From Delftia acidovorans NBRC 14950 (GTDB lineage: Bacteria; Pseudomonadota; Gammaproteobacteria; Burkholderiales; Burkholderiaceae_C), in assembly GCF_001598795.1 (NCBI RefSeq), contig NZ_BCZP01000021.1:63664-95663 (forward strand): a stretch of DNA of 32,000 nucleotides, given 5' to 3'. Under the pieces are notes generated by a model, which saw only the letters and a list, made by a program, of their open reading frames with translations, did no database searches and was not told the origin of the DNA. Position 1 is the first letter of the stretch; each line of letters begins with the position of its first letter. Below, piece after piece: positions 3,869 to 29,848 of this stretch. Both the position numbers and the translations under genes were made by a program.

Positions 3869-4190
3869 GGGGTGTCTCCGGTGTCCTGGTTCTTGGGTTA
3901 GGGGCTTCAGCGCAGGGCGCACAGACCCTGGGCGGTTTCCATCTGGGGATCTGAGGGGCGTGGGAGCCGCCGGCCCGGGGTGCAATGCCCCGAAGGTCGG
4001 CCGCATGTCGGGCGCATGCCGGGCGCCGCGGTCCAGGCCGGCTGCGGCGGCGATGAGATGGTCAGGCTCCCGTGTCACGGCGCGTGTCATGTCGCGGTCC
4101 ATGGTATCGGCTGCATGGCGGGGCCGGGCAGTACGCCTGGGCGAAAAGTCCCCAGTACAGTCCATGGCCCGCAGCGGTGGCAGTCGCCTG

Positions 4191-4207
4191 CTTGACAGCC
4201 TGTCAAG
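4191..4207. promoter_or_regulatory. Perfect 17-bp palindrome CTTGACAG-C-CTGTCAAG (candidate operator) in the cluster leader
   Basis: Read directly: 8-bp perfect inverted arms around a single central base. A third, one-mismatch half site CTGACAAG lies at 4224-4231. The palindrome contains a TTGACA hexamer, but I see no convincing -10 at 17 bp. Confidence 0.3.
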
Positions 4208-4463
4208 TGGCGGTGCCCGCGACCTGACAAGATCGGCGCCCGCACCGCGTGCGTGCCGGGGAACAATGGCGTGGCCGTTGCGGATGGCGCTACAGATTTT
4301 TCCAAAGCTGACGACATACGCAGGGCATGAATCTGTGAGTTTTCCGAGGGACTGTCCGGATGGATCAAGAACTTTTGCTTCCGTCCGGTGCAGGCTCCAC
4401 CCCCGTCTCCATCCCGGCAGGCCCTGGTTTGCGGCTGCCCACATTGTTCATCTCCTCATCCCC

Positions 4464-7406
4464 ATGAGCACTACCGATCTTCACGCGGCTTCCCTGAGCG
4501 ATCTCTATGACCGGCTGCATGAAAGCCTCAGCGACGAGGCCTTTGCCGCCGAACTCGACGCCCGCCTGCATGACGGGCGGGCTGACGAGGTCCGCACCTT
4601 CCTGCGCGGCTGCGAGGAGCGTTGTCTCAACATCCTGGGGCATCTGAGCGGCAGCGACGCACCCTGGTCGCGTGACGGCGATCGCTGGCTGGCCTTTGCG
4701 CGGCTCACCGTGCCGCGCGGCCATGTGCTGTCGGGCCGCAGCGAGGAGCTGACCAATGCCCATGTGGCTGCCGAAGTGCGCGTGCTGGCCGAGCAATGGC
4801 TGGCCCACGCCCGCAGCGCCGACCTGCCTGTGTACAAGGGCATAGGCCTGGTGCTCGGCAGCCTGCTGCCCTGGCTCAGCTATCCCGGCATGCCCTATGA
4901 CGAGGTGACGTCCACGCTGGACTGGGCGCTGGCGCTGCGCGAGGAGGCCGGGTTCCGCCGCAGCCATGAGTACCACGCGGCCTGGAAGCCCCTGGTCGCC
5001 CAGCTGAACGATGCCGACCTGCTGCGCTACGCCGCAGTGGGCGGCAAGCTGTTCGACGATGTGCTGGACCACTACCGCAACGAGCGCCAGCCCGGGCAGC
5101 CCAAGGGCCAGGGCTGGAAGGACTGGCTGCCTTTCTTTGCCGAGCATCCCCAGCTCTTCGACAAATCCTACATAGATGATCCCGACCTGATCGGGCAGCG
5201 CTGGGCCAGTGCCGGCGCGCCCCGGCGAGAGGAACTGGCCGCGCTGCTGCTCAGCCAATTGACCTACTCCCAGCGTGCCGAGCGGACGAGCGCATTGCAA
5301 TTGCTGGACCGCCTCGTGGCCGAGGATTCCGCGCCCTTTGCCAAGCAGCTGCGTGAGAACGGCCGCTACCAGATCAGCCTGGCGCTGGCCATGCATGTCA
5401 TGAAGCAGGACGATGCCGCCTTGCTGCCCCTGCTGCTGCCCGCCATGGCCCAGCGCTGCGACCGCGAGGACGAGCTGCGCCGCTACCGCAGCGTGATCCG
5501 CGAACTGGTGACCCGCCGCCCGGCCGATCTGGCCGAGGTGCCTGTCAAGGACCTGGTCAATGTGCTGCCCGCGTTCGACACCGCCAGCCTGAAGGCCACG
5601 CTGCCCACCTTGACCCCGCTCATCGCAGGCAGCAGCGCAAAGGGCCTGCGCGCCGCCATGGCCGGTCTGGCCGCCCATATTCCGCTGGCCAGCTTGGTGG
5701 ATGCCGGCTGGCTGAACAAGCCGCCCAAGAACCTGCTGCTGACCTGCCGCGACGTGCTGCTGGCCCACCCCGACCCCGCTGTCGGTCCCTTGCTGGCGCA
5801 GTTGCTGGCCGGCGGCAAGCTGGATGCGGCCTCGGCCAGCAGCGTGCAGCAGCGGCTGCAGCAGTTGGGCCTGACAGGGCAGGGCGCCTCGACATCGGAT
5901 GAAAGCCAGGCAGATGCCGCATCGCCAGCGTCTGCCGCTGGCGGCGTGGATCTGCAAGCCCAGCTCGCCTCCATCAAGCGCCTGAGCGCGGCCATCAAGC
6001 CCTTCGATACGCCCGAGCTGCTGGCGCTGTGCGCGCCGCTGTCCGAACACGCGGCCCGCGTGCTGCTGCATGTGTCTGCCATTGCCGAAGGCGGCCTGCC
6101 GCCGCTGGCCGGCGAGCTGCTGGCGCGCATTCCGGCCGACAACCGTGCCCGCCTGGCGCTGGCCCTGGTGCAGCAATGGATTGCTTCCGAGGGCGAGCCC
6201 AAGCAGCGCTGGGCGCTCAGGCTGCTGCCCGGCCATGCCGATGACCGCGTGGTCGATGCGCTGGTGTCCGCCGTCCAGGCCTGGAACCGCCCGCGCCTGC
6301 AGCGCGCGGCCGCCGCCGTGGAGCATCTGGGCGAGGTGGACAGCCTCTACGCTCTGCTGCGCGTGCAGGAGATCTCCGAGTCGCGCTCGCTCAAGGACCA
6401 GGTGCAGCGCACGGCGCGCATCGCCCTGCGCGCTGCCGCCGCGCGCCGCAAGATGAGCGTGCCCGAACTCTTCGACGAGCTGACGCCGGACTTCGGCCTG
6501 GGCCAGGGCCTGACGGTCACGGTCGGGCCGCAGAGCTACCGCGTGGAGCTGCAGGGCGATCTGAGCCTGCGCGTCATCAACGACAAAAACAAGGCCAGCA
6601 AGACCATTCCTGCGGTCAAGGACGAGGCGCTCAAGCCCGAATGGGAGGCGGCCACCGCGCAGCTCAAGACCCTGGCCACCAGCCTCAAGACCGTGGTCAA
6701 GCAGCAGGCGCCGCGCATGCTGGCGGCCCTGGTCAGCGGCAAGCGCTGGCCGCTGGATCGCTGGCAGCGGCTGTTCGTGGCCCACCCGTTGCTGCGCATC
6801 GTGGGGCGCAGCCTGATCTGGCGCGCCGAGGATGCGCCGGGCCTGGCGCGCACCAGCTTCCGCTTGGCCGAGGATTTCTCGCTGGTCGATGTGGAGGATG
6901 AAACCGTGACCCTGCCCGCTGGCTGCAGCATCAGCCTCTGGCACCCGGCCACGGCCCAGCCCGGCGAGCGCGAAGCCTGGCAGGCCTACATGGCCGACTA
7001 TGAGCTGGAGCCCCTGGTCGACCAGCTGGGCGCCTGCGCCGAGCAGCCCGCGCCCGGCCAGTTCAAGAACGGCATGCTGCTGCCGCCCGCGCCGATCACG
7101 CTGGCGCAAGAGCAGCTTGGCGGCCTGCTCAAGAAATTCGGCTACCGGCCCGGCCCCGTGGGCGATGGCCCCAGCATCAATGAGCATGTGTGGCGCCTGC
7201 CCGCGCTGGAGCTGAGCCTGGAGTTGTCGCACGGCTATTTCCCGCCCTACCTGGACCTGGGCCTGCCCGTGGCCGTGGAAGGCCTGCGAGTGCACGACCT
7301 GAGCAAGGAATACGGGGCCAGCGCCGACCCGGCGCGGCTGCCCAAGCCGCTGCTGGCCACGCTGCAAGGCCAGTGGCTGGCCCTGGCGGCCAAGGCGGCT
7401 GCCTGA
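4464..7406 (+). CDS. DUF4132 domain protein, paralog 1 (MolR/YehI-like), 980 aa
   Basis: The C-terminal region LTPDFGLG...VGPQSYRVELQGDLSLRV...KTIPAVKDE...KQQAPRML...RWPLDRWQRLFVAHPLLRIVGRSLIWR...FRLAEDFSLVD...LWHP...AWQAYMADYELEPLVDQL matches the DUF4132 pattern I know from E. coli YehI/MolR. The start at ATG 4464 is chosen because all three paralogs align from their N-termini (APWSRDGDRWLAFAR motif). No clear Shine-Dalgarno is present. Confidence 0.85.
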   Translation: MSTTDLHAASLSDLYDRLHESLSDEAFAAELDARLHDGRADEVRTFLRGCEERCLNILGHLSGSDAPWSRDGDRWLAFARLTVPRGHVLSGRSEELTNAHVAAEVRVLAEQWLAHARSADLPVYKGIGLVLGSLLPWLSYPGMPYDEVTSTLDWALALREEAGFRRSHEYHAAWKPLVAQLNDADLLRYAAVGGKLFDDVLDHYRNERQPGQPKGQGWKDWLPFFAEHPQLFDKSYIDDPDLIGQRWASAGAPRREELAALLLSQLTYSQRAERTSALQLLDRLVAEDSAPFAKQLRENGRYQISLALAMHVMKQDDAALLPLLLPAMAQRCDREDELRRYRSVIRELVTRRPADLAEVPVKDLVNVLPAFDTASLKATLPTLTPLIAGSSAKGLRAAMAGLAAHIPLASLVDAGWLNKPPKNLLLTCRDVLLAHPDPAVGPLLAQLLAGGKLDAASASSVQQRLQQLGLTGQGASTSDESQADAASPASAAGGVDLQAQLASIKRLSAAIKPFDTPELLALCAPLSEHAARVLLHVSAIAEGGLPPLAGELLARIPADNRARLALALVQQWIASEGEPKQRWALRLLPGHADDRVVDALVSAVQAWNRPRLQRAAAAVEHLGEVDSLYALLRVQEISESRSLKDQVQRTARIALRAAAARRKMSVPELFDELTPDFGLGQGLTVTVGPQSYRVELQGDLSLRVINDKNKASKTIPAVKDEALKPEWEAATAQLKTLATSLKTVVKQQAPRMLAALVSGKRWPLDRWQRLFVAHPLLRIVGRSLIWRAEDAPGLARTSFRLAEDFSLVDVEDETVTLPAGCSISLWHPATAQPGEREAWQAYMADYELEPLVDQLGACAEQPAPGQFKNGMLLPPAPITLAQEQLGGLLKKFGYRPGPVGDGPSINEHVWRLPALELSLELSHGYFPPYLDLGLPVAVEGLRVHDLSKEYGASADPARLPKPLLATLQGQWLALAAKAAA

Positions 7407-7476
7407 GCCTTTGTGAACCTTTGCTCCCTTGAAACGTTGGCCGCCCGACCGCCCATCACCGAAGACTCCACAGACC

Positions 7477-10473
7477 ATGAGCAACAACGAGACAGCAGCG
7501 CTTCCCCTGCAGGCTTTGTACGAACTGCACACGGCCGCTCCGGCCGGGCGCGAGGGCATGCCGGCCTTTGCCGCCGAACTGGCAAAGCGCCTGGCCCAGG
7601 GGCGTGATGCCGAGGTGGCGGACTTCCTGCGCGACAGCAGCAGCCTGTGCCAGGAACGGCTGCACCAGCTGCCCGGCGAGCATGCGCCCTGGCAGCGCGA
7701 CCACGCGCTGTGGCTGGCGCTGGCGCGCATCAGCCTTCCGCTGGGACAGTTCTATGGGGGCAACTCGGGCGTGCCCCGGCGCAGTGCCGAGCTGACCGCG
7801 GAGCTGACGGCACTGGCCCGCGCCTGGCTGGATGACTGGGGCACCCGCACCCACCAGCCCTGGAGATTGCGCGATGGCTACGACCTCGTGCTCAGGCAGG
7901 TGTTTGGCGTGCTGGGCCATGAAGGCATGTCCAGTGCCGAGGTCACCGGCCTGCTGCGCTGGGCGCGGGAACTGAGCGCAAAGGCCGGCATTGCGCCCGG
8001 CGCGCAGTACTACTGCCACTGGCAGCACCTGCTGCACCAGCTGCCCGAGCCCGAACTGCTGGCCATGGCCATCGAGGACGGCGGCGGCCAGCTCAGCCGC
8101 GACATCGTCCAACGCCAGCTGCCGCTGCAGCGCACGCGGCCTGCAGGGCAGCGCTGGGCGCTGTGGCGGGATTTTTTTGCGCAATTCCCCGCCGTGCTTG
8201 ACCAGCTGCGCCTGCCCGAGCCCGTGCTGATTGCATCGCGCTGGGAGGCGGCCGATGCCGCGCGCCGCGACCTGCTGGCCCAGGACCTGTTCAAGGCCTT
8301 GTGCTTTGCCTCGGACGATGACTGGCCGCATGACCGTGCCCTGGTGGAGCGCATGCTGCAGACCGATGCCGCACCGCTGGTCGCCTGGTTCAAGCAACTG
8401 GGCCACCTGGCGATCAATCCCGTCGTGGCGCAGCGGCTGTGGGACGCCCGGTGGCCGGCCCTGCTGCCGCTGCTATTGCCGGCCTGCGCAGACGGCTGCA
8501 AGCACGAATCCGACCGCGCCGGCTACGCCCCGGTGGCCGAGACCCTGCTGGCCGATCGCCCTGGCGACCTGGCCCGGCTGGCCGCCGGCCCGCTCACGCA
8601 CCTGCTGCCCGCGCTGCGCGTGGACACGCTTCAGCGGCTGCTGCCGCAACTGGGCAAGGCCGCCTCCAGCAGTGCCTCCAAGGGCTTGCGTGCGGCGCTG
8701 GCACAGGCCCTGTCTGCCTTGCCCGTGGATGCGCCCCAGGCCGCCGGCTGGCTGGCCAAGCCCAACAAGAACCTGGTGCTGGCCTACCGCGATGTGCTGG
8801 TGGCCCATTCTGATCCGGCGTCTGGCAGCCTGCTGTCGGCACTGCTGTCCGGTGGATTGCTGGAGGTGGCCGAGCAAGGCCCGGTGCAGGCGCGCCTGAA
8901 GGATCTGGGTGCCGCAGCCCCGGTTGCGGACGCAGCCAGGCCACCTGCCGGCGAGGTCGCTCCGGCAGGCAGCGATGGTGCCGGCTCCCTGGCAGATCTT
9001 GAAGCCCAGGCCGCCAGCCTGCAGCGCCTGTCGCCCGCCATTGCCGCGCTGGACCAGCCGGCGCTGCTGGACCTGCTCGCGCCCCTGTCGGCCCAGGCCG
9101 CGCGTGCGCTGCTGCACCTGGCGGCCACCAGCCCGCAGGAGCTGCCGGCGCTGGCCCACCACCTGCTGGCCCAGGCCAGCGCCGAGAATCGCGCGCGGCT
9201 GGCCCAGGCCCTGGTCCAGCACTGGGTGGCTGCCGATGGCGCGCCCGAATCGCGCTGGGTGCTCAAGCTGCTGCCCGGCGCGGCGGACGACCGCATCGTC
9301 GATGTGCTGTCCTCGGCCGCCCTGGCTTGGCACAAGACGCGCAAGGAGCGCGCCGTGGTCGCGCTGCAGCAGCTGGGCCGGCTCGACACGGTCTATGCCC
9401 TGTCCTGCGTGCAGGCCCTGGCCACCGGCAAGACGCTCAAGCCCAGCGTGCTGGCTGCCGCGCAGGCCGTGCTGGCCGAGGCCGCCACGCGGCGCGGCAT
9501 GGTGCTGGCCGACCTCAGTGATGAGCTGACCCCGGACTTCGACCTGGGCCGGGGCGTGCAATTGCAAGTGGGCGCGCAGACCTATGACGTGCTGCTGCAG
9601 GGTGACCTGTCGCTGCGCCTGCGCACGCCGGCCGGCAAGCTGGTGCGCAGCCTGCCGGCCCTGGCCGACGAGGGCCTGCGCACGGAGTGGGATGCGGCCG
9701 CCGCGCGGCTCAAGACGCTGTCCAAAGGCATCAAGGCCGTGCTGCAGCAGCAGGCGCCACGCCTGCAGTCCTGCCTGATGCTGGGTCGGCACTGGCCGCT
9801 GGACACCTGGCGCCGCCTCTTCCTGGAGCACCCGCTGCTGCGCGTGGTGGCACAGGGCCTGGTCTGGCGGGTGGAGCCCGCGGCCGGCCAGCCGTTCAGC
9901 CTGCGCATTGCCGAAGACTTGTCCCTGGTCGATGCCGAGAGCGACGCGGTGCAACTGCCGGGCGAGGGCCGCATCGCCCTGTGGCACCCCGCGCAGGCCA
10001 CCGAACAGGAGCGTGCGCAGTGGCGCGAATGCCTGGCCGACTACGGCCTCAAGGCCCTGATCGAGCAGGTCGATGCGCCCGCCGACCTGCCACTGGCCAG
10101 CCAGTGGCAGCATGAGCTGCTGCAGCCCCAGGCACCGATACGGCTCACGCAGCAGGCGCTGGACGGCCTGGCAGGCCCATGGCGCTTTCATGCCGGCCCT
10201 GTGTGCGATGGCCCCGGCATCTACCTGCACCTGCGGGACTTTGCCGTGCAGCGCTGGCGCGTGGAACTGCTGCACAGCGCGGCCATGCCGTACTACGAGC
10301 CCGGCCATGAAATCGACATCGAAGGCTTTGCCCTGCGCGACATGGCCGCCGACCGCCTGCTGCCCCCGGCCGAATGGCCGCTGCCGCTGCAGGCATCGCT
10401 GTGCGGCATGCTCCAGGCCCTGGCCTCGCGCGCTGCGGGCGCGGCAGCCGCAGCGGCTGCAGCCCAGGTTTGA
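7477..10473 (+). CDS. DUF4132 domain protein, paralog 2 (most divergent), 998 aa
   Basis: It shares the architecture of paralog 1: N-terminal APWQRDHALWLALAR, central KGLRAAL...KPNKNLVLAYRDVLVAHSDP, and C-terminal LTPDFDLG...LQGDLSLRL...RLFLEHPLLRVVAQGLVWR...IAEDLSLVDA...LWHP...LADYGLKALIEQV. It ends in a poly-Ala tail (AAGAAAAAAAAQV). ATG at 7477 lies 70 nt after the paralog 1 stop. Confidence 0.85.
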   Translation: MSNNETAALPLQALYELHTAAPAGREGMPAFAAELAKRLAQGRDAEVADFLRDSSSLCQERLHQLPGEHAPWQRDHALWLALARISLPLGQFYGGNSGVPRRSAELTAELTALARAWLDDWGTRTHQPWRLRDGYDLVLRQVFGVLGHEGMSSAEVTGLLRWARELSAKAGIAPGAQYYCHWQHLLHQLPEPELLAMAIEDGGGQLSRDIVQRQLPLQRTRPAGQRWALWRDFFAQFPAVLDQLRLPEPVLIASRWEAADAARRDLLAQDLFKALCFASDDDWPHDRALVERMLQTDAAPLVAWFKQLGHLAINPVVAQRLWDARWPALLPLLLPACADGCKHESDRAGYAPVAETLLADRPGDLARLAAGPLTHLLPALRVDTLQRLLPQLGKAASSSASKGLRAALAQALSALPVDAPQAAGWLAKPNKNLVLAYRDVLVAHSDPASGSLLSALLSGGLLEVAEQGPVQARLKDLGAAAPVADAARPPAGEVAPAGSDGAGSLADLEAQAASLQRLSPAIAALDQPALLDLLAPLSAQAARALLHLAATSPQELPALAHHLLAQASAENRARLAQALVQHWVAADGAPESRWVLKLLPGAADDRIVDVLSSAALAWHKTRKERAVVALQQLGRLDTVYALSCVQALATGKTLKPSVLAAAQAVLAEAATRRGMVLADLSDELTPDFDLGRGVQLQVGAQTYDVLLQGDLSLRLRTPAGKLVRSLPALADEGLRTEWDAAAARLKTLSKGIKAVLQQQAPRLQSCLMLGRHWPLDTWRRLFLEHPLLRVVAQGLVWRVEPAAGQPFSLRIAEDLSLVDAESDAVQLPGEGRIALWHPAQATEQERAQWRECLADYGLKALIEQVDAPADLPLASQWQHELLQPQAPIRLTQQALDGLAGPWRFHAGPVCDGPGIYLHLRDFAVQRWRVELLHSAAMPYYEPGHEIDIEGFALRDMAADRLLPPAEWPLPLQASLCGMLQALASRAAGAAAAAAAAQV

Positions 10474-10496
10474 CTCCCTCCAGAACCCCTGAATCC

Positions 10497-13424
10497 ATGA
10501 CCTCTTCGACCCTAGAACACACCGACCAGGCCACGCTGGAGGAACTGAGCGCCTCGCTGCCACCCGCCGAACTGGTCCAGGTGCTGGCCAGCCGCATGCG
10601 CGCGGGCCGGCATGACGAAGTGGGCGCCTTCACGCGCAAGGCCTTCGACGACTATTCCAACCCCATCCGCGCCCTGGGCAACTTCGATCTGCCCTGGACC
10701 CATGACCATGACCTGTGGCTGGCCTTCGCGCGGCAGACCATCCCCTTCGGGCGCAGGATCGACGGCAGCCTGGACGGCGACATTCCACGCCACAGCCCCG
10801 AGCTTGCGGCCGAGTTCGAGCAGATGGCGCGCGCCAGCCTGGCCCGTCCACCTGCGCCGGACGGCGACAACGACTACCGTGAAATCCGCATCCTGGACAT
10901 GTTCGGCTGGCTCTGGTACCCGGGCATCAGCCGCGAACGGGTGATGCAGCAGCTGGACTGGGCCGCAGAGCTGAACGTCCAGTCCGGCGCCAGGTATGAC
11001 AGAACCGACTGGAAGCTGCTGCTGGGCAGCCTGGAAGACCAGGACCTGATGGAGCTGGCCGAGCGCGGCGGCGCGCTCTATGCCGACATCCGCGATGTCT
11101 ACATGACGCGGCACAGCGACGTTCCGCACCCGCAGCGCTGCGCGCCCTGGTACGACTTCTACCGCCGCCATCCCGACTGGTTCGACGACAAGCCCATCAA
11201 CGAAGACCCGGGCCTGATCGCGCTGCGCTGGGACCTGGGCGCCGACGCCCAGCGGCGCCTGGAACTGGTCAACCTGCTGCTGGGCAGGGCGGACCGCGAG
11301 CCGGCTGATTACTTCATCTCCATTTTCGACCGCCTGGTGCGGGAGGATGCCGCGCCCTTCGTCGCCTGGATCGAAGGATGGCAGCCCAAGTACCACTTCG
11401 ATGCGGTGGTCGCCCGGCAGATCTGGACGGCACGCTACCCGGAGCTTTTGCCCCATCTGCTGCGCTGCATATTGCAGAAATCGCGCATTGAGCCCTTCAT
11501 CGGCCTGCTCAACCAGATGCTGACCGAGCAGCCCGACTATCTGCGCGAGATTCCCACCGTGCGCCTGGCCCCGCTGCTGGCGCAGCTGGACCCGGCCATG
11601 CTGCATGCCCGGCTGCCCCTGCTGGGCGAACTGCTGGCGGCCAGCAGCTCGCGGGCGCTGCGCGAAGCGGTGGCGCGCTTCATGCAAGGGCTGGATGCGC
11701 AGGCCGTAGGCGCTGTCTTCGAGTCCAACGCCTGGCTGCAGCGGCGCGAGAAAGCGATGCAGCTGGCCTGCCGCGACATCCTGCTGGCCCACCCCGATCC
11801 CGGGGTCGCACCGCTGCTGCAGGCGCTGCTGCGCACGGGCCTGGACCTGGGCTCCGAAAGCATGGTCGAGGGCCGGCTGCTGGCCCTGGGTGTCTCAGTG
11901 CCAGGCGCTCTGACCGTGGCGCAGGGGGAGGGGGGCCGGGTCCCGCTCGATGCGCTGGAGGCCCGCGTGGCGCGCTTCAAGCGCTTTTCCAGCAGCATCA
12001 AGGCCTATGACCAGCCAGAGACCCTGGCCCTGTTCGCGCCGCTGTCCGGGCATGCGGCACGCACCGTGCTGCACCTGGTGGCCACGGCCGAGGAAGAACT
12101 GCCGCCGCTGGTGGAGCAGTTGCTGGCCCATGTGCCGGCCGAAAGCCGCGCCCAGCTGTCCCTGCACCTGGTCAATGCCTGGGTGGCCCTGGAGGGCGAG
12201 CCCAAGGCGCGCTGGGCGCTGCGCCTGGCCACCGGCCATATCGACGACCGCCTGGTGCAGACCCTGGTGGCCGCCGTGAAGGCCTGGGGCTGGAGCAAGA
12301 AGCTGCGCGCCATCATCGCCGTGGAGCAGCTCGGTGCGCTGGACACGCTGTACGCGCTGTCCCAGGTCCAGACCCTGTCCAGCTCGCGCAAGCTCAAGGA
12401 TCTGGTGATTGAAGCCACGCATGACGCGCTCAAGGCGGCCGCCCAGCGCCGCGGCCTGAGCCTGATCGAGCTGTATGACGAGCTGACGCCCGATTTCGGC
12501 CTGGGCGGCGAAGGCCTGGTGCTGGAGGTGGGCCCGCAGCGCTACCGCCTGCAGCTGCAGGGCGACCTGAGCCTGCGCGTGGTCGGCGACAAGGGCAAGG
12601 CCTCCAAGACCCTGCCTGCGCTCAAGGACGAATCGCTGCGCCTGCAGTGGAATGCGGCCCAGGCCGAATTCAAGACCGTTGCCGCAGGCGTCAAGGCCAT
12701 CGCCAAGCAGCAGGTGCCGCGCCTGGGTACCGCCTTCATGACGGGACAGCGCTGGTCCGTCCCGCGCTGGCGCAGATTGTTCCTGCTGCATCCCCTGCTG
12801 CGCATCGTGGGCCGCAGCCTGATTTGGCGGCTGGAGCAGGGCGCCAGCTTTCGCATTGCCGAGGACTTTTCCCTGCTCGACGCCACCGACGATGCCGTGG
12901 AGCTGCCCGACGACGCACAGGTGCTGCTCTGGCATCCGGTCGATGCCGCAGCGGGCGAGGTTGAAGCCTGGCGCACCTGCCTGGCCGACTACGAGCTGCA
13001 GCCGCTGATCGACCAGCTGAACGCAGGCGCACAACTGCCCGAAGCCGGGCAGTGGAAGAACCATGCCCTGCACCCCGCCGGCCCGCTGCAGATACGCCAG
13101 GGCGCGCTGTCCGGCCTGCTGGCCAAGTGGAACTACCGCCCCGGCCCCGTGGGGGACGGCCCCGGCATCTACGAGCACAAGCTGGACCTGGCAGGCCCGC
13201 AGCTGTACATCGAACTCCACCACGGGCGCTACCTGCCGTTCATGGACCTGGACAACCGCGTGGACATCACCCATGCCGTGGTCTATGACAGCAGCCACCG
13301 CGGCGACGATGGCCGCTGGCCCCGGCTGCAGCCGCAGCAGTGGCCGCGCGCACTGCAGGCCACGCTGATGGCGCAGTTCGCGGCCATCGCCGCCAAATCG
13401 GCCAGCACCAAAGAGAGCGACTGA
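10497..13424 (+). CDS. DUF4132 domain protein, paralog 3, 975 aa
   Basis: Architecture as above: LPWTHDHDLWLAFAR; ACRDILLAHPDPGVAPLLQALL; LTPDFGLGGEGLVLEVGPQRYRLQLQGDLSLRVV...RLFLLHPLLRIVGRSLIWR...FRIAEDFSLLD...LWHP...LADYELQPLIDQL...YRPGPVGDGPGIYEH. ATG at 10497 lies 23 nt after the paralog 2 stop. Its stop codon overlaps the next start (TGATG). Confidence 0.85.
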   Translation: MTSSTLEHTDQATLEELSASLPPAELVQVLASRMRAGRHDEVGAFTRKAFDDYSNPIRALGNFDLPWTHDHDLWLAFARQTIPFGRRIDGSLDGDIPRHSPELAAEFEQMARASLARPPAPDGDNDYREIRILDMFGWLWYPGISRERVMQQLDWAAELNVQSGARYDRTDWKLLLGSLEDQDLMELAERGGALYADIRDVYMTRHSDVPHPQRCAPWYDFYRRHPDWFDDKPINEDPGLIALRWDLGADAQRRLELVNLLLGRADREPADYFISIFDRLVREDAAPFVAWIEGWQPKYHFDAVVARQIWTARYPELLPHLLRCILQKSRIEPFIGLLNQMLTEQPDYLREIPTVRLAPLLAQLDPAMLHARLPLLGELLAASSSRALREAVARFMQGLDAQAVGAVFESNAWLQRREKAMQLACRDILLAHPDPGVAPLLQALLRTGLDLGSESMVEGRLLALGVSVPGALTVAQGEGGRVPLDALEARVARFKRFSSSIKAYDQPETLALFAPLSGHAARTVLHLVATAEEELPPLVEQLLAHVPAESRAQLSLHLVNAWVALEGEPKARWALRLATGHIDDRLVQTLVAAVKAWGWSKKLRAIIAVEQLGALDTLYALSQVQTLSSSRKLKDLVIEATHDALKAAAQRRGLSLIELYDELTPDFGLGGEGLVLEVGPQRYRLQLQGDLSLRVVGDKGKASKTLPALKDESLRLQWNAAQAEFKTVAAGVKAIAKQQVPRLGTAFMTGQRWSVPRWRRLFLLHPLLRIVGRSLIWRLEQGASFRIAEDFSLLDATDDAVELPDDAQVLLWHPVDAAAGEVEAWRTCLADYELQPLIDQLNAGAQLPEAGQWKNHALHPAGPLQIRQGALSGLLAKWNYRPGPVGDGPGIYEHKLDLAGPQLYIELHHGRYLPFMDLDNRVDITHAVVYDSSHRGDDGRWPRLQPQQWPRALQATLMAQFAAIAAKSASTKESD

Positions 13425-14548
13425 TGGCCACCAAACGCATTGCAGCGGCCACCCCGGAACCTGCCGCCCAGCGGCTGCCGGCCGAGATGGCCCACGCCCA
13501 GGAACTCGCGGCCCTGCAGGCCGCCGACCAGGGCCCGCGCCCCGACGGCTGGCGCCTGAGCCCGCGCTCCGTGCGGCGCTTCATCCTGGGCGGTGCGGAG
13601 CCTGACGGCGGCGGGCCTGCCATCGCGCGCAAGATCCACGGCAACGATGCCCTGGTCGAGCGCGCCATCGTCACCCTGGCCGGCCAGCGCGGCCTGATGC
13701 TGGTGGGCGAGCCGGGCACGGCCAAGTCCCTGTTGTCCGAGCTGCTGGCCGCCGCCATCAGCGGCGACAGCAAGCTCACCGTGCAGGGCGGTGCCGGCGT
13801 GGTGGAAGAGCAGATCCGCTACGGCTGGAACTACGCCCTGCTGCTGCGTGACGGCCCTGGCCCCGAAGCCCTGGTGCCCGGCCCGCTGCACCGCGCCATG
13901 GGGGAAGGGCGGCTGCTGCGTTTCGAGGAAATCACGCGCTGCTCCACCGAAGTGCAGGACTGCATGGTGCCCGTGCTCTCCGAGCGGCTGCTGCAGATTC
14001 CCGAACTCAAGCACGAGCAGCCCTGGCTGCTGGCACGGCCGGGCTTCAATGTGATTGCCACGGCCAACCTGCGCGATCGCGGCGTCAACGAGATGTCGGC
14101 CGCGCTCAAGCGCCGCTTCAACTTCGAGACCATGCGCCCGCTCGAAGGCGTGGCCGCGCAGGCCGCATTGATAGGGCAGGAGGTGGGCCGCGCACTGGCG
14201 CAGCAGCGCATCGGCACCACCGTCGCGCCCGATGTGCTGGCCCTGCTGGCCACGGCCTTCCAGGAGCTGCGCAGCGGCAGCGTTGAGGGCACGGCCGTGG
14301 AGCGGCCGGGCACCGTGCTGTCCACGGCCGAGGCCATCGACGTGGCCTTCAACGCCGCCTGCCAGTGCTGGTACTTCGGGCAGGAGCAGGTGGGTCCGGC
14401 CCACCTGGCGCGCCACCTGCTGGGCACGGTGATCAAGGACGACGACGAGGACCGGCGCCGTTTCGCCGAATACCTGCGCGTGGTGGCACGCCAGCGCGCA
14501 GGGCAGCCGCAGTGGCAGGACTTTGTCGCAGGCGGCCGTGAGCACTGA
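13424..14548 (+). CDS. MoxR/AAA_5-type AAA+ ATPase (YehL-like), 374 aa
   Basis: Walker A is GEPGTAKS (13706-13729). The Walker B-like segment LLRFEEITR (FEE at 13922-13930) aligns with the hhhhDEINR motif of MoxR ATPases. The sensor/Arg-finger region is NVIATANLRDRGVNEMSAALKRRF. The ATG overlaps the upstream stop by 1 nt. Confidence 0.88.
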   Translation: MATKRIAAATPEPAAQRLPAEMAHAQELAALQAADQGPRPDGWRLSPRSVRRFILGGAEPDGGGPAIARKIHGNDALVERAIVTLAGQRGLMLVGEPGTAKSLLSELLAAAISGDSKLTVQGGAGVVEEQIRYGWNYALLLRDGPGPEALVPGPLHRAMGEGRLLRFEEITRCSTEVQDCMVPVLSERLLQIPELKHEQPWLLARPGFNVIATANLRDRGVNEMSAALKRRFNFETMRPLEGVAAQAALIGQEVGRALAQQRIGTTVAPDVLALLATAFQELRSGSVEGTAVERPGTVLSTAEAIDVAFNAACQCWYFGQEQVGPAHLARHLLGTVIKDDDEDRRRFAEYLRVVARQRAGQPQWQDFVAGGREH

Positions 14549-16940
14549 CGCTGCCGCGTGGCTGGCGCCGCTGCCGCAGCTGCGCCTGGTGCCCGTGCGC
14601 CACCACAGCCCGCGCTGCGCCCACCACCTGCGCGCGCTGATGCGCGAGTTCAAGCCCACCCACGTGCTGATCGAAGGCCCGGGCGAGCTCGATGCCCTGC
14701 TGCCCGCGCTGCAGCACGCCCAGGCGCGTCCCCCGCTGGCCGCCTACCTGCATGCGGCCATGGCCGGGCCCGGCGCGGCCGAGCAAGACTGGCGCTGCCG
14801 TTGCTACGTGCCCTTTGCCGCCTTCTCGCCCGAATGGGTGGCCCTGCGCGAGGCGGCGCGGCTGCGCAGCGCCGTGCGCTTCATCGACCTGCCCTATGCC
14901 GACAGGCTGGCGCAGGCCGCGCAGCTGGACTACTTCGCCTGCGCGCCCGAACCCCTGCTGGCCGACGAGCCCGCACGGCGCGCGCCCGACGTGCTGGCCG
15001 GCCTCATCCAGGCCAGCGGCTGCCGCGATTTCGACGAATGGTGGGACCGGCATTACGAATCTGGCAACGAGGACGCCTCGCCCCAGGCGTACTTTGCCGG
15101 CGTGCTGGCCTTCAGCCAGCTGCTGCGCGAGCGCGAGCAGGGCGCGGGCGGCAGCGGCATGGATGCCGAGGACGTGGCGCGCGAGGCCCACATGGCCGCT
15201 CAGGTCAGCGCGGCCCTGGCCGAAGGCGGGCGCTGCCTGGTGGTCTGCGGCGGCTTCCATGTGCCCGGCATCGTTGCCGGCCTCTCGGCCCCCGCCTGGC
15301 CTGCGGACGCCAGGCCCGCCATCGATGTAGGCGTGCACCTCATTGCCTACACGCTGCAGCGGCTGGAGCGCGCCGGCGGCTACGCGGCCGGCATGCCCAT
15401 GCCTGGCTACTACCAGGGCGTATGGCAGGCGCTGGAACAGGGCGCTTCGCAACCCGATGCCCAGGCCTGGCCCGAGATGGCGGCACGCACCGTGAACAGC
15501 CTGCGCGCCCGGGGCATGCCCGCCAGCCTGCCTGAGGCGGCCGAGGCCGTGCGCCTGGCCCATGGTCTGGCCGCCTTGCGCGCCTGCCGCGGCGGCCGGG
15601 CCGAGCTGCTGGAAGCGCTGGACAGCGCCGTGTTCAAGGAGCATGCCCAGGCCCTGCGACCGCAGCCTATGGTGCAGCAGACCGGGCAGCAGACTGCTCA
15701 ATGGCTGCTGGACGCCGACGACTACGGCCAGCTGCCACCCAACGCGCCGGCCGCCCCGCTGCTGGTCGATGTGCAGGCCTTCTGCCTGCGACACCGTCTG
15801 CCCGTGCGGCCCGCCGCCCCCGTGCGCAAGGAGCTGGACATCTACCGCAGCGCCCGCCACCGCCGGCTGTCGCAGGGGCTGCACCGCCTGTGCTACCTGG
15901 GCGTGCCCTATGCGCAGCGCCTGGCCGGGCCGGACTTCGTGGCGGGCACGGGCCTGGCGCGTGTGCGCGAGGTCTGGACGCTGGGCTGGCAGGTCGAGAC
16001 CACGGTGGCCCTGACCGAGGCCATGTGTCACGGCTCCAGCCTGGAGGAAGCCGCGGTGCACCTGGTGCGCGAGCGCCTGGCGCAGACGGCCCACACGGAG
16101 CCCGCGCAGCGCGTGCTGGAGGTGCTGGTCATGGGGCTGGACGGCATCGCCCAACAGGTGCTGGACACCGTGCAGGCCTGGATGGAGCGCAGCCACGACG
16201 CGCTGGCCCTGGCCCGCGCCACGGGCTGCCTGGCCCTGGCCTACGAGGCCCGCCATGCGCTGGGCGGCGTGGGCCTGGCGCGCCTGCTCCCGCTGCTGCG
16301 GCGCTGCTTTGCGCAGGCCTGCCTGCGCCTGCCCTGGCTGGGCGAGGGCGATGCATCCCAGCAGGCACAGGCCCTGGATGCCCTGGCCGATCTGCACGGC
16401 ATGGTCTGCCGCCACGCGCCCTGGGCCGACGCCGGCCTGTTCCACGATGCCTGTGCCGCCCTGCATGAGGCAGGCGCCGACAGCACGCCCGAGCCCGTGC
16501 GCGGCGCCACGGCCGGCATCCTGAGCATGGCCGGCCGCTGGCAGATCGCGCAGACCGATGCCGCCCTGCGCGCCATGCTGGGCCTGGCGCAGGTCGATGC
16601 TGCCGCCATGGGCGAATACCTGCAGGGCTTTGTGCGCGTGGCCAAGGGCTGGCTGCTCAGCCATCCGCCGCTGCTGCGCCTGCTCAGTGACGGCATTGCG
16701 CACTGGCCGGAAGACGCCTTCCTGGCCGGCCTGCCCGCCTTGCGGCTGGCCTTTGCCCAGCTGACCCGTGCCGAACTGCGGCAGCTGGCCGGGCGGCTGG
16801 CGGGTCTGTCGGGCGCGGCCACGTCACCCGGCGCAACCACGCTGGCCTCCGTGCACCTGCCATCGGACGAGGCCCTGGCGCACGGCCGCGCCTTGGCGGC
16901 CCAGGTGGGCCGGCTGCTGCAACCCTGGGGACTGTCATGA
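14538..16940 (+). CDS. Large conserved protein of unknown function, YehM-like (DUF5682-type by recollection)
   Basis: The ~800-aa ORF has strong GC3 bias and an N-terminus LRLVPVRHHSPRCAHHLRALMREFKPTHVLIEGPGE. Its position between the AAA+ and VWA genes matches E. coli yehM. The start is ambiguous (GTG 14538 or TTG 14523), and both overlap the AAA+ gene's end. The stop overlaps the next ATG (ATGA). Confidence 0.7.
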   Translation: MSTDAAAWLAPLPQLRLVPVRHHSPRCAHHLRALMREFKPTHVLIEGPGELDALLPALQHAQARPPLAAYLHAAMAGPGAAEQDWRCRCYVPFAAFSPEWVALREAARLRSAVRFIDLPYADRLAQAAQLDYFACAPEPLLADEPARRAPDVLAGLIQASGCRDFDEWWDRHYESGNEDASPQAYFAGVLAFSQLLREREQGAGGSGMDAEDVAREAHMAAQVSAALAEGGRCLVVCGGFHVPGIVAGLSAPAWPADARPAIDVGVHLIAYTLQRLERAGGYAAGMPMPGYYQGVWQALEQGASQPDAQAWPEMAARTVNSLRARGMPASLPEAAEAVRLAHGLAALRACRGGRAELLEALDSAVFKEHAQALRPQPMVQQTGQQTAQWLLDADDYGQLPPNAPAAPLLVDVQAFCLRHRLPVRPAAPVRKELDIYRSARHRRLSQGLHRLCYLGVPYAQRLAGPDFVAGTGLARVREVWTLGWQVETTVALTEAMCHGSSLEEAAVHLVRERLAQTAHTEPAQRVLEVLVMGLDGIAQQVLDTVQAWMERSHDALALARATGCLALAYEARHALGGVGLARLLPLLRRCFAQACLRLPWLGEGDASQQAQALDALADLHGMVCRHAPWADAGLFHDACAALHEAGADSTPEPVRGATAGILSMAGRWQIAQTDAALRAMLGLAQVDAAAMGEYLQGFVRVAKGWLLSHPPLLRLLSDGIAHWPEDAFLAGLPALRLAFAQLTRAELRQLAGRLAGLSGAATSPGATTLASVHLPSDEALAHGRALAAQVGRLLQPWGLS

Positions 16941-19866: not shown

Positions 19867-20177
19867 GCAGTTCAATCAAAGCAAGCAACGAGAGCACCAC
19901 CGCGCCGCTGCGCCATTGGCTGGCACAAGGCCAGGCCTGGCTGGCCGACATGCAGGCCGCAGGCCTGGCGGGTGCCGGCGCACCGCTGCTGGCCGCAGGC
20001 CGGGCCTGGGCCGACGAGGGCGCGCTGCTGGGCTGGGGCGCCCTGGCAAGGCAGATGGACGGCGTGCTGGACCCGCAGCTGCCGCCGGCGGAGCGCGCGG
20101 CCGCCCTGCTCGATATCGCGGTCTGGGTCATGACCGCGCAGCGGCTGCAGGCCGGTGCGGATCAGTCCTTGCCCTGA
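19863..20177 (+). CDS. Small hypothetical protein (104 aa), terminal gene of the cluster
   Basis: The ATG overlaps the SWIM gene's stop (ATGA) and is preceded by GGAGAAGG. The product is Ala/Leu/Trp-rich with GC3-rich codons. I recognise no family. Its 3' end overlaps the convergent gene by 16 nt. Confidence 0.45.
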   Translation: MSSSIKASNESTTAPLRHWLAQGQAWLADMQAAGLAGAGAPLLAAGRAWADEGALLGWGALARQMDGVLDPQLPPAERAAALLDIAVWVMTAQRLQAGADQSLP

Positions 20178-20989: not shown

Positions 20990-21009
20990 GGGGGCACTCC
21001 GTTGCGGGG

Positions 21010-22179: not shown

Positions 22180-22279
22180 TTGCGGGACGTCATTCGCAGG
22201 GGTGGGTCGGCCTGCTAGTATGCGGGCGGCCGCAAGCCATGGCCTGGCTTGTTTCTCAAGACCCACTCCCTTGTCGCAT

Positions 22280-26005: not shown

Positions 26006-26010
26006 GGTGT

Positions 26011-29720: not shown

Positions 29721-29848
29721 TTTGGCTAAGTTATTGTCAAAGCACGAATTTCTTTGCTAAGTGCTTGCCGCTATTCAGAATTTCACGCCCTGCTTGCCGC
29801 AGAACTTCATCTTAGCACCCAGCGAAATCTATCTACACTTAGGACTTT

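What the first reader, a model, noticed from the sequence alone, without database searches (positions are those of the whole stretch)
4464..13424. Tandem triplication of ~1000-aa DUF4132 paralogs, all intact, with one markedly divergent middle copy
The three consecutive genes align from N-terminus to C-terminus. They share N-terminal (A/L)PW..D..LWLAFAR, central ..RD(V/I)LLAHPDP.., and C-terminal LTPDFGLG...LQGDLSLR...HPLLR(I/V)VG..L(I/V)WR...AED(F/L)SL(V/L)D...LWHP...ADY.L..L(I/V).Q. By eye, paralogs 1 and 3 are clearly closer to each other. For example, both have YRPGPVGDGP and DYEL(E/Q)PL, where paralog 2 has FHAGPVCDGP and DYGLKAL. Paralog 2 alone ends in a poly-Ala tail. None carries a frameshift or internal stop, so all three appear to be maintained. 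Several divergent DUF4132 genes feeding a single ATPase/VWA/SWIM core resemble alternative adaptor or specificity subunits, or a hetero-oligomeric scaffold. None of the three has a recognisable Shine-Dalgarno, whereas the downstream genes do.
Basis: seen in the sequence. Interest (0 to 1): 0.7.

Follow-up and report, generated by a model that had tools for sequence, protein, structure and literature searches.

The report
Ancient three-copy DUF4132 gene array
Three old, intact sister genes for large proteins of unknown function sit at the head of a Delftia operon that encodes an ATP-driven protein-remodelling machine; the array is real and conserved but belongs to a known, uncharacterised system also present in E. 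coli.

Summary
The core observation holds. Window 4464-13424 carries three head-to-tail, full-length, stop-free DUF4132 genes of 980, 998 and 975 aa. They lie upstream of yehL/M/P/Q-like genes (AAA_5 MoxR ATPase, DUF5682, VWA_CoxE, SWIM) and an unnoticed 104-aa gene. The window comes from Delftia.

The copies are 40-46% identical along their whole length (z>180 against shuffles). The triplication is ancient. Each copy has its own orthologue clade (bootstrap 99-100%), in the same order, in Delftia species and more distant relatives (orthologues 64-86% identical). All three are under purifying selection (dN/dS 0.20-0.27).

"Markedly divergent middle copy" is overstated, because the branching order of the three clades is unresolved. 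The lack of a Shine-Dalgarno sequence before all three genes is confirmed and conserved.

Related loci carry 1, 2, 3 or 4 copies, and E. coli has its own old pair (yehH/molR and yehI). Family-wide, only the C-terminal ~450 aa is conserved; the N-terminal alpha-solenoid varies.

My best reading is a shared C-terminal module for the common machine plus diverged N-terminal recognition solenoids, so the copies act as alternative or complementary adaptor/scaffold subunits. That part is inference. The biochemical function is unknown, and I found no match to known defence systems, phage records, solved folds or functional literature.

The parts
4464..7406 (+). DUF4132 paralogue P1 (980 aa). It belongs to the clade that also holds the only copy in single-copy relatives.
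   Evidence: ORF and start. The ATG aligns with the L086 orthologue start. Pfam DUF4132 E=5e-29. 99% identical to Delftia proteins. AF2 model with pLDDT 86.7. dN/dS 0.20.
7477..10473 (+). DUF4132 paralogue P2 (998 aa). It has the longest branch and a strain-variable poly-Ala C-terminal tail.
   Evidence: E=3e-26. Orthologues at 95-99% in D. acidovorans, tsuruhatensis, lacustris and deserti. dN/dS 0.27. Tail variation.
10497..13424 (+). DUF4132 paralogue P3 (975 aa). Its stop codon overlaps the ATPase start (TGATG).
   Evidence: E=2e-28. dN/dS 0.24. The gap to P2 is 23 nt with no SD, and 11 nt in L003 and L005.
13424..14548 (+). YehL-like MoxR-type AAA+ ATPase (374 aa).
   Evidence: Pfam AAA_5 E=4e-33. 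Walker A GEPGTAKS at residue 95; no canonical hhhhDE Walker B was found, and the Walker B assignment to FEE is by eye. Closest solved sequences are midasin AAA domains, E=1.5e-6. dN/dS 0.13.
14640..16940 (+). YehM-like DUF5682 protein (766 aa from ATG 14640; an upstream GTG at 14538 or TTG at 14523 is a possible alternative start).
   Evidence: Pfam DUF5682 E=1e-108. 31% identical to E. coli YehM and 61% to the L002 protein. Candidate starts.
16937..18181 (+). YehP-like VWA protein (414 aa) with a MIDAS motif.
   Evidence: Pfam VWA_CoxE E=5e-48. DQSGS at residue 254. Its start overlaps the DUF5682 stop.
18178..19866 (+). YehQ-like SWIM zinc-finger protein (562 aa).
   Evidence: Pfam SWIM 20.7 bits against a 19.6 cut-off. 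CSCPAFGPCHH at residue 66. Strong SD, -11.6 kcal/mol. Homologues occur only in the DUF4132-type loci.
19863..20177 (+). Small conserved eighth gene (104 aa, no known family). Its start overlaps the SWIM stop.
   Evidence: ORF. Similar ~99-aa genes lie in the same position in L088 and L002. No Pfam match and not similar to E. coli YehK.
3907..4463 (.). Roughly 550-nt intergenic region between the divergent AlaX-like gene and P1. This is the presumed promoter/leader, with the palindrome TTGACAGCCTGTCAA at 4192-4206. The left boundary is approximate.
   Evidence: AlaX-like domains occupy only the C-terminal ~250 aa of the minus ORF, and the orthologue in L086 is 249 aa. The last ~350 nt are conserved with L086. 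The palindrome is unique in the window, with 0 expected by chance. No Rfam family and no sigma-70 consensus.

Best explanation
Shown:
- The region is an ancient tandem triplication of the DUF4132 subunit gene of a Yeh-type operon, laid out as DUF4132 x3, MoxR AAA+ ATPase, DUF5682, VWA/MIDAS, SWIM and a 104-aa protein.
- The copies diverged long before the Delftia genus radiated. Each forms its own orthologue clade in conserved order, and each is kept by purifying selection.
- Each protein is a ~107-kDa, three-part molecule: an N-terminal alpha-solenoid (~1-470), a disordered acidic linker, a second helical block (~497-675), and a C-terminal alpha/beta module (~683-980) that carries the family-wide signature residues.
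- The C-terminal half is conserved between paralogues and across the whole family. The N-terminal solenoid is the fast-evolving part and is replaced in other family members.

Inferred:
- The conserved C-terminal module is the part that engages the shared ATPase/VWA/DUF5682/SWIM machine. A conserved acidic residue may bind the VWA MIDAS site, as in other MoxR-VWA pairs.
- The diverged solenoids give each paralogue a different partner or target.
- The three proteins would then be alternative or complementary adaptor/scaffold subunits of one remodelling machine.
- The SD-less starts and 11-70-nt gaps suggest low, coupled translation of the three genes from one transcript.
- The biochemical output of the machine is unknown.
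For: Gene structure and families.

Full-length homology far above chance.

Source and conservation:
- P1 is 97-99% identical in Delftia spp..
- P2 is 95-99% identical in D. acidovorans, tsuruhatensis, lacustris and deserti.
- Triple arrays in the same order occur in L086 (93%), L003/L004/L088 (64-79%) and L005 (66-73%), with the same downstream PEP_mutase neighbour in L088.

Orthologue clades: P1 99%, P2 100%, P3 100% bootstrap.

Selection (NG86): dN/dS P1 0.20, P2 0.27, P3 0.24, against 0.13 for the ATPase and 0.16 for DUF5682. The N-terminal quarters run at 0.25-0.44 and the C-terminal quarters at 0.06-0.23.

Paralogue identity: 30-44% in the first ~380 residues and 46-60% over residues ~380-875.

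Family-wide pattern:
- 5916 representative clusters match the profile, nearly all only over profile positions ~540-950, with N-termini of differing length.
- WGR and HEAT_2 fusions exist. E. coli carries a WGR-encoding yehF next to yehH.

All three copies keep essentially all signature residues: W762, W786, R800, H827-P828, W839, D845-Y846, Q854.

Copy number: 1 in L002, L007, L087 and L023; 2 in L006 and E. coli; 2+2 in L008. One copy is therefore enough for a complete locus.

Core machine looks intact: Walker A, MIDAS DxSxS and SWIM CxCxnCxH are present.

Operon continuity: overlapping stop/start codons and no terminator excess.

SD-less starts are conserved.
Against: - No experiment or complex prediction links the C-terminal module to the ATPase/VWA core, or the solenoids to targets.
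- A faster N-terminal half could simply reflect weaker structural constraint on a solenoid.
- Strict co-retention and fixed order of all three copies in every triple-copy lineage, together with probable translational coupling, fits an obligate hetero-oligomer at least as well.
- In well-studied MoxR-VWA systems the large neighbouring gene is usually the client, not an adaptor.
- The ATPase has FEE where Walker B is normally DE.
- 69 of 80 DUF5682 loci work without any DUF4132 gene and use SWIM+DUF5691 instead. DUF4132 is therefore not universal to the machine.
Confidence: 0.45

Rival explanations
1. Obligate hetero-oligomeric scaffold. After duplication the three paralogues became non-interchangeable subunits of one complex, as in other homo-to-hetero-oligomer transitions. 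All three are then needed together with the ATPase, VWA, DUF5682 and SWIM proteins.
For: - All three clades are co-retained in fixed order in every lineage that has P2.
- SD-less starts with gaps of 11-70 nt, and a stop/start overlap into the ATPase gene, suggest coupled and roughly proportional synthesis.
- dN/dS is similar for all three.
- All three keep the family signature residues.
Against: - Close relatives in the P1 clade have complete loci with a single DUF4132 gene (L002, L007, L087) or two (L006). Hetero-assembly is therefore not intrinsic to the system.
- No interaction data exist.
Confidence: 0.28
2. Client model. The DUF4132 proteins are substrates of the MoxR-VWA remodeller, for example needing cofactor insertion or conformational activation, as Rubisco does with CbbQ/CbbO or NOR with NorQ/NorD. 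The three paralogues would be three related clients or isoenzymes.
For: - From established knowledge of MoxR-VWA systems (CbbQO, NorQD, CoxDE), clients are usually encoded next to the ATPase/VWA pair.
- The C-terminal module carries invariant polar residues (R800, E803, H827, D845, Y846, Q854, D901). These could form an active or metal-binding site.
- The VWA is of the CoxE type with an intact MIDAS motif.
Against: - No enzyme family or fold was recognised. Pfam and NCBIfam give nothing beyond DUF4132. Foldseek of the C-terminal model against PDB and BFVD gives no hit with E<0.02 or TM>0.35.
- Two thirds of each protein is alpha-solenoid, the typical build of scaffolds.
- Most DUF5682 systems lack DUF4132 altogether.
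Confidence: 0.17
3. Conflict/surveillance system. The Yeh-type machine is an anti-phage or anti-mobile-element system, the DUF4132 paralogues are diversified sensors, and multiplication widens the recognition range.
For: - Modular build with variable N-termini, including the putatively nucleic-acid-binding WGR domain in relatives.
- Recurrent independent multiplication in E. coli (yehH/yehI, 43% identical), Oceanobacter L008 and Pseudomonas linyingensis L006.
- The yeh region is among loci studied for H-NS/Hha silencing in E. coli (title and listing only).
- NTPase, SWIM and VWA are parts that recur in conflict systems (general knowledge).
Against: - None of the 7 proteins hits PADLOC.
- No DUF4132 match in 50,697 phage records, and only 30 of 72,556 plasmid records, many of them chromosome-sized.
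- The locus is a stable, genus-wide chromosomal locus with host-like GC and housekeeping neighbours.
- Purifying rather than diversifying selection.
Confidence: 0.08
4. Trivial explanations: a recent strain-specific duplication, decaying pseudogene copies, or similarity limited to low-complexity Ala/Leu segments.
For: - The proteins are Ala/Leu-rich (A 12-18%, L 15-17%).
- The genome is ~70% GC, which produces long spurious ORFs.
Against: - Identity is 40-46% over ~980 aligned residues with z>180, and many W, H, D, R and P columns are conserved.
- Orthologue clades have 99-100% bootstrap support.
- dN/dS is 0.20-0.27.
- Copies are intact in at least four diverged lineages.
- DNA identity between copies is only 60-78%.
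Confidence: 0.02

Closest known systems
E. coli K-12 yehF-yehH(molR)-yehI-yehK-yehL-yehM-yehP-yehQ cluster (uncharacterised)
   Same: - Same gene families in the same order: DUF4132 genes, then AAA_5 MoxR ATPase, DUF5682, VWA, SWIM.
- E. coli also has two tandem, anciently diverged DUF4132 paralogues, 43% identical in the C-terminal module.
- YehM is 31% identical to the Delftia protein.
   Different: - Delftia has three copies, not two, and none is disrupted. yehH is a pseudogene in K-12.
- Delftia has no WGR gene or domain and no yehK. It has a different 104-aa gene after SWIM.
- The duplications are independent. E. coli YehI is 18-23% identical to P1-P3 and lies outside their clades.
- The only function-related literature I found concerns regulation: the molR promoter is activated by BglJ-RcsB (PMC3950696).
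SWIM-DUF5691-AAA_5-DUF5682-VWA_CoxE five-gene cassette, the commonest DUF5682 context
   Same: It shares the ATPase, DUF5682 and VWA_CoxE core plus a SWIM protein. It is found in Proteobacteria, Bacteroidota, Actinobacteria, Acidobacteria, Planctomycetes and Chloroflexi.
   Different: - It has no DUF4132 genes. A ~500-aa DUF5691 protein and a short SWIM protein lie upstream instead.
- DUF5691 shows no detectable homology to DUF4132 or to the long SWIM protein (hhalign probability <1%).
- DUF5682 identity to the window protein is only 25-32%.
MoxR-type AAA+ / VWA remodelling pairs (CbbQ-CbbO, NorQ-NorD, CoxD-CoxE, RavA-ViaA) and midasin/Rea1
   Same: - An AAA_5 ATPase is paired with a MIDAS-bearing VWA protein of the CoxE type.
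- The closest solved sequences to the ATPase are midasin AAA domains.
- From established knowledge, these pairs use the VWA MIDAS site to grip an acidic residue of a client while the AAA+ ring remodels it.
   Different: - No equivalog-level match to any of these; only sub-threshold GvpN and MadB hits.
- This system has two extra conserved partners (DUF5682, SWIM) and the DUF4132 proteins, none of which occurs in the characterised systems.
- The client is unknown.
Eukaryotic HEAT/ARM alpha-solenoid scaffolds (exportins/karyopherins, CAND1, FANCD2/FANCI, condensin Ycg1)
   Same: The predicted N-terminal two thirds of P1 is an alpha-solenoid. These proteins are the top Foldseek hits (E ~1e-4).
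   Different: - TM-scores are only 0.11-0.21 and sequence identity 9-14%, so this is generic repeat-fold resemblance rather than homology.
- The C-terminal alpha/beta DUF4132 module has no counterpart in them.

Membership tests
DUF4132 (Pfam PF13569) | HMM match above the curated gathering score (27 bits) | tested here: met
   P1 101.8 bits, P2 92.8 bits, P3 100.0 bits.
DUF4132 (Pfam PF13569) | Retention of family-wide conserved residues in the C-terminal module | tested here: met
   Of 28 positions conserved at >=80% in 118 diverse members, P1 keeps 27, P2 26 and P3 28. All three keep W762, W786, R800, H827-P828, W839, D845-Y846 and Q854.
Yeh-type operon (E. coli yehI/yehLMPQ) | AAA_5 MoxR ATPase, DUF5682, VWA_CoxE and SWIM genes co-oriented directly downstream of the DUF4132 gene(s) | tested here: met
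   Pfam matches. Same order as the annotated E. coli K-12 region. Overlapping stop/start codons.
Yeh-type operon (E. coli yehI/yehLMPQ) | Accessory genes yehF (WGR) and yehK | tested here: not met
   No WGR match in any window protein. The 104-aa protein is not similar to YehK. These genes appear to be lineage-specific extras.
MoxR-VWA remodelling pairs (CbbQ/O, NorQ/D, CoxD/E type) | AAA+ ATPase with Walker A and Walker B motifs | tested here: inconclusive
   Walker A GEPGTAKS is present. No canonical hhhhDE motif was found; by eye the Walker B position reads LLRFEE, that is EE instead of DE. ATPase activity was not tested.
MoxR-VWA remodelling pairs (CbbQ/O, NorQ/D, CoxD/E type) | Partner VWA protein with a MIDAS DxSxS motif | tested here: met
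   DQSGS at residue 254 of the VWA_CoxE protein.
MoxR-VWA remodelling pairs (CbbQ/O, NorQ/D, CoxD/E type) | Membership of a named, characterised subfamily (equivalog HMM) | tested here: not met
   NCBIfam gives only GvpN at 31 bits (cut-off 267) and MadB at 27.5 bits (cut-off 475). Nothing matches the VWA, DUF5682, SWIM or DUF4132 proteins.
MoxR-VWA remodelling pairs (CbbQ/O, NorQ/D, CoxD/E type) | An identified client that is remodelled in an ATP- and MIDAS-dependent way | not testable with these tools
   This needs biochemistry or genetics.
Known or candidate anti-phage defence systems (PADLOC-DB v2) | HMM match of any component to a defence-system protein model | tested here: not met
   0 families for all 7 proteins at E<=0.01. 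No DUF4132 in phage records.
SWIM-DUF5691 variant of the DUF5682 system | A DUF5691 gene upstream of the ATPase | tested here: not met
   A DUF5691 profile found hits in 69 loci but none in the window or the other DUF4132-only loci.

The most novel reading that the evidence does not exclude
DUF4132 proteins are interchangeable sensor/adaptor subunits of a widespread, uncharacterised midasin-like bacterial machine (MoxR AAA+, VWA/MIDAS, DUF5682, SWIM). Each N-terminal module (solenoid, WGR or HEAT) recognises a different macromolecular target, and the conserved C-terminal module, a fold with no solved counterpart, hands that target to the ATPase. Repeated independent multiplication in Delftia, E. 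coli, Oceanobacter and Pseudomonas would then be a general way of widening target range, possibly in nucleic-acid surveillance or inter-genomic conflict.
Probability: 0.2. Interest if true: 0.7.

Novelty: new member of a known kind. Interest (0 to 1): 0.35.

Why it matters
DUF4132 is a large family: 5916 clusters at 50% identity match the profile. Both the family and the Yeh-type MoxR/VWA/DUF5682/SWIM operon, which is present in E. coli K-12, have no known function. I found no functional paper on DUF4132, DUF5682 or DUF5691 in the searchable literature.

The Delftia array gives a clean natural experiment. It holds three old, individually conserved paralogues with a shared C-terminal module and diverged N-terminal solenoids, and close relatives carry one or two copies. 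That comparison shows which part of the protein probably serves the common machine and which part carries specificity. It also gives concrete constructs for pull-downs, complex prediction and deletion genetics.

By itself, a conserved tandem paralogue array in an annotated family is not surprising.

Tried and rejected
1. Low-complexity artefact: rejected by shuffle z-scores and the make-up of conserved residues.
2. Recent duplication or gene conversion: rejected. Copies are only 60-78% identical at the DNA level, and there are separate orthologue clades.
3. Pseudogenes: rejected.
4. 'P1 and P3 are sisters, P2 is the outlier': not robust. The Biopython BLOSUM NJ tree put P1 with P3, but the bootstrap with Kimura distances gave P2+P3 66% and P1+P3 21%.
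5. Homology between DUF4132 and DUF5691 or the long SWIM protein, that is DUF4132 as a replacement by descent: hhalign probability <1%.
6. Known defence system: no PADLOC hit.
7. RNA elements in the leader or between the genes: Rfam found only a distant tRNA. No sigma-70 consensus and no terminator excess.
8. Fold assignment:
   - The full-length model gives only generic solenoid hits.
   - The C-terminal domain model (pLDDT 89.4) gives nothing significant in PDB or BFVD.
   - A sequence profile against the PDB gave nothing meaningful.
9. The second homologue search, with the three-paralogue alignment, returned almost the same P1-dominated list as the first and added little.
It mostly returned the DUF5691 variant, so the copy-number survey of true Yeh-type loci rests on about a dozen loci.
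11. Charge and pI differences between paralogue segments are unremarkable.
12. Literature searches for DUF4132, DUF5682, DUF5691, yehLMPQ, and the MoxR+SWIM+WGR+vWA combination found no functional study.

Full report
**What is in the sequence**

The window is ~70% GC. On the + strand there are three consecutive long ORFs. Their most plausible starts are ATG 4464, ATG 7477 and ATG 10497, and their stops are at 7406, 10473 and 13424. None has an internal stop.

Each ORF matches Pfam DUF4132 in its C-terminal third, well above the curated cut-off (E 5e-29, 3e-26, 2e-28).

Directly downstream on the same strand lie five more genes:
- an AAA_5 MoxR-type ATPase (13424-14548), whose ATG overlaps the P3 stop as TGATG;
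- a DUF5682 protein (14640-16940);
- a VWA_CoxE protein (16937-18181);
- a SWIM zinc-finger protein (18178-19866);

Similar ~99-aa genes follow the SWIM gene in two related loci. No terminator-like signal exceeds chance inside the array. The eight genes therefore look like one operon.

It is preceded by a ~550-nt intergenic region that diverges from an AlaX-like gene.

**Check of the observation**

The three proteins align from end to end.
- BLASTP identities are 42% (P1-P2), 44% (P1-P3) and 40% (P2-P3) over ~975-1000 columns.
- Local-alignment scores are 189-300 standard deviations above composition-matched shuffles.
- The 290 columns identical in all three include many Trp, Pro, Arg, Asp and His. 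The similarity is therefore not Ala/Leu low complexity.
- At the DNA level the copies recur at ~3.0 kb spacing with only 60-78% identity and no long near-identical tracts. There has been no recent duplication or gene conversion.

The claim of a "markedly divergent" middle copy does not hold.
- P2 is only a few points less similar to the others.
- A 200-replicate NJ bootstrap leaves the branching order unresolved (P2+P3 66%, P1+P3 21%).
- The P2 poly-Ala tail varies between strains and is missing in a 93%-identical relative, so it is trinucleotide slippage.

The Shine-Dalgarno remark is correct for the three genes. Anti-SD duplex energies are +1.0, -1.0 and +0.2 kcal/mol against a background of -3.7 +/- 2.6, and the same holds in three related loci. 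The downstream genes range from weak to strong.

**Source and age**

P1 is 97-99% identical to proteins annotated "DUF4132 domain-containing protein" in Delftia acidovorans and other Delftia. P2 is 95-99% identical in D. acidovorans, D. tsuruhatensis, D. lacustris and D. deserti. The window is therefore Delftia, and the array is genus-wide.

Contigs carrying more distant P1 or P2 orthologues show the same three genes in the same order, followed by the ATPase, DUF5682 and VWA genes:
- L086, 93% identical;
- L003, L004 and L088, 64-79% identical, with the same downstream PEP_mutase neighbour as the window;
- L005, 66-73% identical.

In a tree of 21 DUF4132 proteins, the P1, P2 and P3 orthologue groups are each monophyletic (bootstrap 99, 100 and 100%). 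Orthologues are 64-86% identical, against 40-46% for paralogues.

Against L086, Nei-Gojobori dN/dS is 0.20, 0.27 and 0.24 for P1, P2 and P3. The ATPase gives 0.13 and DUF5682 gives 0.16.

**Copy number elsewhere**

Close relatives in the P1 clade have complete loci with a single DUF4132 gene: a Rhodocyclaceae MAG (L002), an Azoarcus MAG (L007) and L087. Pseudomonas linyingensis (L006) has two, one P1-like and one sister to the P3 clade (bootstrap 99%). A Thermomonas MAG has one, and an Oceanobacter MAG has two upstream plus two on the other strand.

E. coli K-12 has yehF (WGR domain), yehH (molR, a pseudogene in K-12) and yehI, followed by yehK-L-M-P-Q. The yehH and yehI C-terminal modules are 43% identical to each other. 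YehI is 18-23% identical to P1-P3 over the trimmed full-length alignment, and tblastn of the P1 C-terminal module finds E. coli YehI-type sequences at ~30%. The E. coli pair is thus an independent old tandem pair.

Tandem, anciently diverged DUF4132 paralogues are therefore a recurrent feature of this type of operon. One copy is enough for a complete locus.

**Wider context of the core**

A scan of one genome per species, anchored on DUF5682, returned 80 loci across many phyla. Sixty-nine carry a different five-gene arrangement: short SWIM, DUF5691, AAA_5, DUF5682, VWA_CoxE, with no DUF4132.

The DUF4132-type loci lack DUF5691 and have a longer SWIM protein after the VWA gene. Three Bacteroidota loci have both DUF5691 and one downstream DUF4132 gene. 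Profile-profile comparison finds no homology between DUF4132, DUF5691 and the long SWIM protein.

**Anatomy of the proteins**

An AlphaFold2 model of P1 (22-sequence alignment, mean pLDDT 86.7) shows four parts:
- an alpha-solenoid, residues ~1-470;
- a disordered acidic linker, 473-494;
- a second helical block, 497-672;
- an alpha/beta module, 683-980.

Foldseek against the PDB returns only generic HEAT/ARM solenoids (exportins, karyopherins, CAND1, FANCD2/FANCI) at TM 0.11-0.21.

An exhaustive profile search finds 5916 representative clusters (1238 at E<=1e-30). Nearly all share only profile positions ~540-950 and have N-termini of differing length. Some relatives fuse WGR or HEAT_2 domains.

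Between the Delftia paralogues, identity is 30-44% in the first ~380 residues and 46-60% over ~380-875. Between orthologues, the N-terminal half evolves two to five times faster in dN/dS.

All three paralogues keep essentially every family-wide signature residue: W762, W786, R800, H827-P828, W839, D845-Y846, Q854. None looks degenerate.

**The core machine**

- The ATPase has a Walker A motif. By eye, FEE sits where Walker B is normally DE.
- The VWA protein has a MIDAS DQSGS motif.
- The SWIM protein has CxCxnCxH (all).
- The closest solved sequences to the ATPase are midasin AAA domains.
- The VWA, DUF5682 and SWIM proteins have no solved relatives by sequence.
- NCBIfam and PADLOC give no family or defence assignment.
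- DUF4132 is absent from 50,697 phage records and found in only 30 of 72,556 plasmid records, several of them chromosome-sized.
- Flanking genes are ordinary: CNNM/CorC, an azurin-like protein, an AlaX-like protein, PEP_mutase and a DUF1501/DUF1800 pair. An integrase/AlpA island junction at a tRNA-Gly lies 10 kb downstream and is unrelated to the operon.

**How it most likely works**

Shown: this is an old, selectively maintained triplication of the DUF4132 gene of a Yeh-type MoxR/VWA operon, with a conserved C-terminal half and a diverging N-terminal solenoid.

Inferred, from established knowledge of MoxR-VWA pairs (CbbQ/CbbO, NorQ/NorD, CoxD/CoxE, midasin), where the VWA MIDAS site grips an acidic residue of a partner while the AAA+ ring remodels it:
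- the conserved C-terminal module is the interface with the shared machine;
- the solenoids provide distinct partner or target surfaces;
- the paralogues are therefore alternative or complementary adaptor/scaffold subunits.

I put this at about 0.45. The main rivals are:
- an obligate hetero-oligomer (0.28), favoured by strict co-retention, fixed order and likely translational coupling, and disfavoured by single-copy relatives;
- a client model (0.17), favoured by analogy with characterised systems and by the invariant polar residues, and disfavoured by the lack of any enzyme-like fold and by the solenoid build;
- a conflict/defence system with diversified sensors (0.08), for which I found no direct support.

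**Literature**

Full-text searches found no functional study of DUF4132, DUF5682, DUF5691 or yehLMPQ. The only relevant items are:
- activation of the E. coli molR (yehH) promoter by BglJ-RcsB (PMC3950696);
- use of the E. coli "metG/DUF4132/yeh region" as a transposon insertion site in ST131 (PMC9334617).

**Verdict**

This is a real, ancient, conserved three-copy array, and a new member of a known but uncharacterised kind of operon. The genes are already annotated as DUF4132 proteins in public Delftia genomes, and E. coli shows the same theme.

The finding is moderately interesting as an entry point to an unknown machine. It is not a surprise in itself.

Noticed in passing
window 19863-20177 (+): An unannotated-looking eighth operon gene of 104 aa. 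Its ATG overlaps the SWIM stop. Similar ~99-aa genes follow the SWIM gene in L088 (22291-22590) and L002 (12302-12597). It has no Pfam family and is not similar to E. coli YehK.
   Followed up: partly
window 4192-4206: A near-perfect 15-nt palindrome, TTGACAGCCTGTCAA, lies ~270 nt upstream of the P1 start, in the part of the leader that is conserved with L086. It is unique in the window, with 0 expected by chance. It may be an operator or part of the promoter.
   Followed up: partly
window 29647-31679: tRNA-Gly(ccc) on the minus strand lies immediately next to a tyrosine integrase (29761-31209, +) and an AlpA-like regulator (31206-31679, -). GC drops to ~0.62-0.65. This is probably the edge of an integrated island.
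   Followed up: no
window 10440-10470 (P2 C-terminus): The poly-Ala tail of P2 (AAGAAAAAAAAQV) is strain-variable. L086 ends ...SRATAQV, and Delftia P2 proteins are 984, 993, 997 or 998 aa long. This points to GCN repeat slippage, not a functional feature.
   Followed up: yes
window 13424-14548 (ATPase, residues ~165-172): A search for the canonical hhhhDE Walker B motif found nothing. By eye the Walker B position reads LLRFEE, that is Glu-Glu instead of the usual Asp-Glu. Walker A is canonical.
   Followed up: no
window 4444-4463, 7457-7476, 10477-10496, and the same positions in L086, L003, L005: The 20 nt before each DUF4132 start are pyrimidine/C-rich and end in ..(A/T/C)CC ATG or ..ATC ATG. 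Their anti-SD pairing is weaker than the window background. The single-copy locus L002 has an SD-like AAGGAA (-7.4 kcal/mol) instead.
   Followed up: partly
L003, L004 and L088, upstream of the triple array (L088 1-6746): In the more distant triple-copy lineage, the genes upstream of P1 are parts of an extracellular contractile injection system (eCIS_core, AAA+WHD ATPase, Asp/Arg hydroxylase). The downstream PEP_mutase neighbour is the same as in the window. GCA_903684635.1 is labelled D. tsuruhatensis, yet its orthologues are only 64-79% identical, so the label may be wrong.
   Followed up: no
L009-L084 (69 loci): A widespread five-gene cassette, short SWIM, DUF5691, AAA_5, DUF5682, VWA_CoxE, occurs across at least seven phyla. 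I found no literature on it. Three Bacteroidota loci (L060, L061, L078) combine it with one downstream DUF4132 gene.
   Followed up: partly
L008 (Oceanobacter MAG) 4271-8788 (+) and 18177-22302 (-): Four DUF4132 genes surround one yeh-type core. Two shorter ones (720-785 aa) lie upstream, and two lie on the opposite strand downstream. Three of them, compared, are ~31% identical to one another.
   Followed up: no
window 24782-27381 (-): A DUF1501/DUF1800 gene pair lies with long overlapping alternative ORFs. The 22.2-24.6 kb stretch has lower GC (0.64-0.67) and ORFs with no Pfam match.
   Followed up: no
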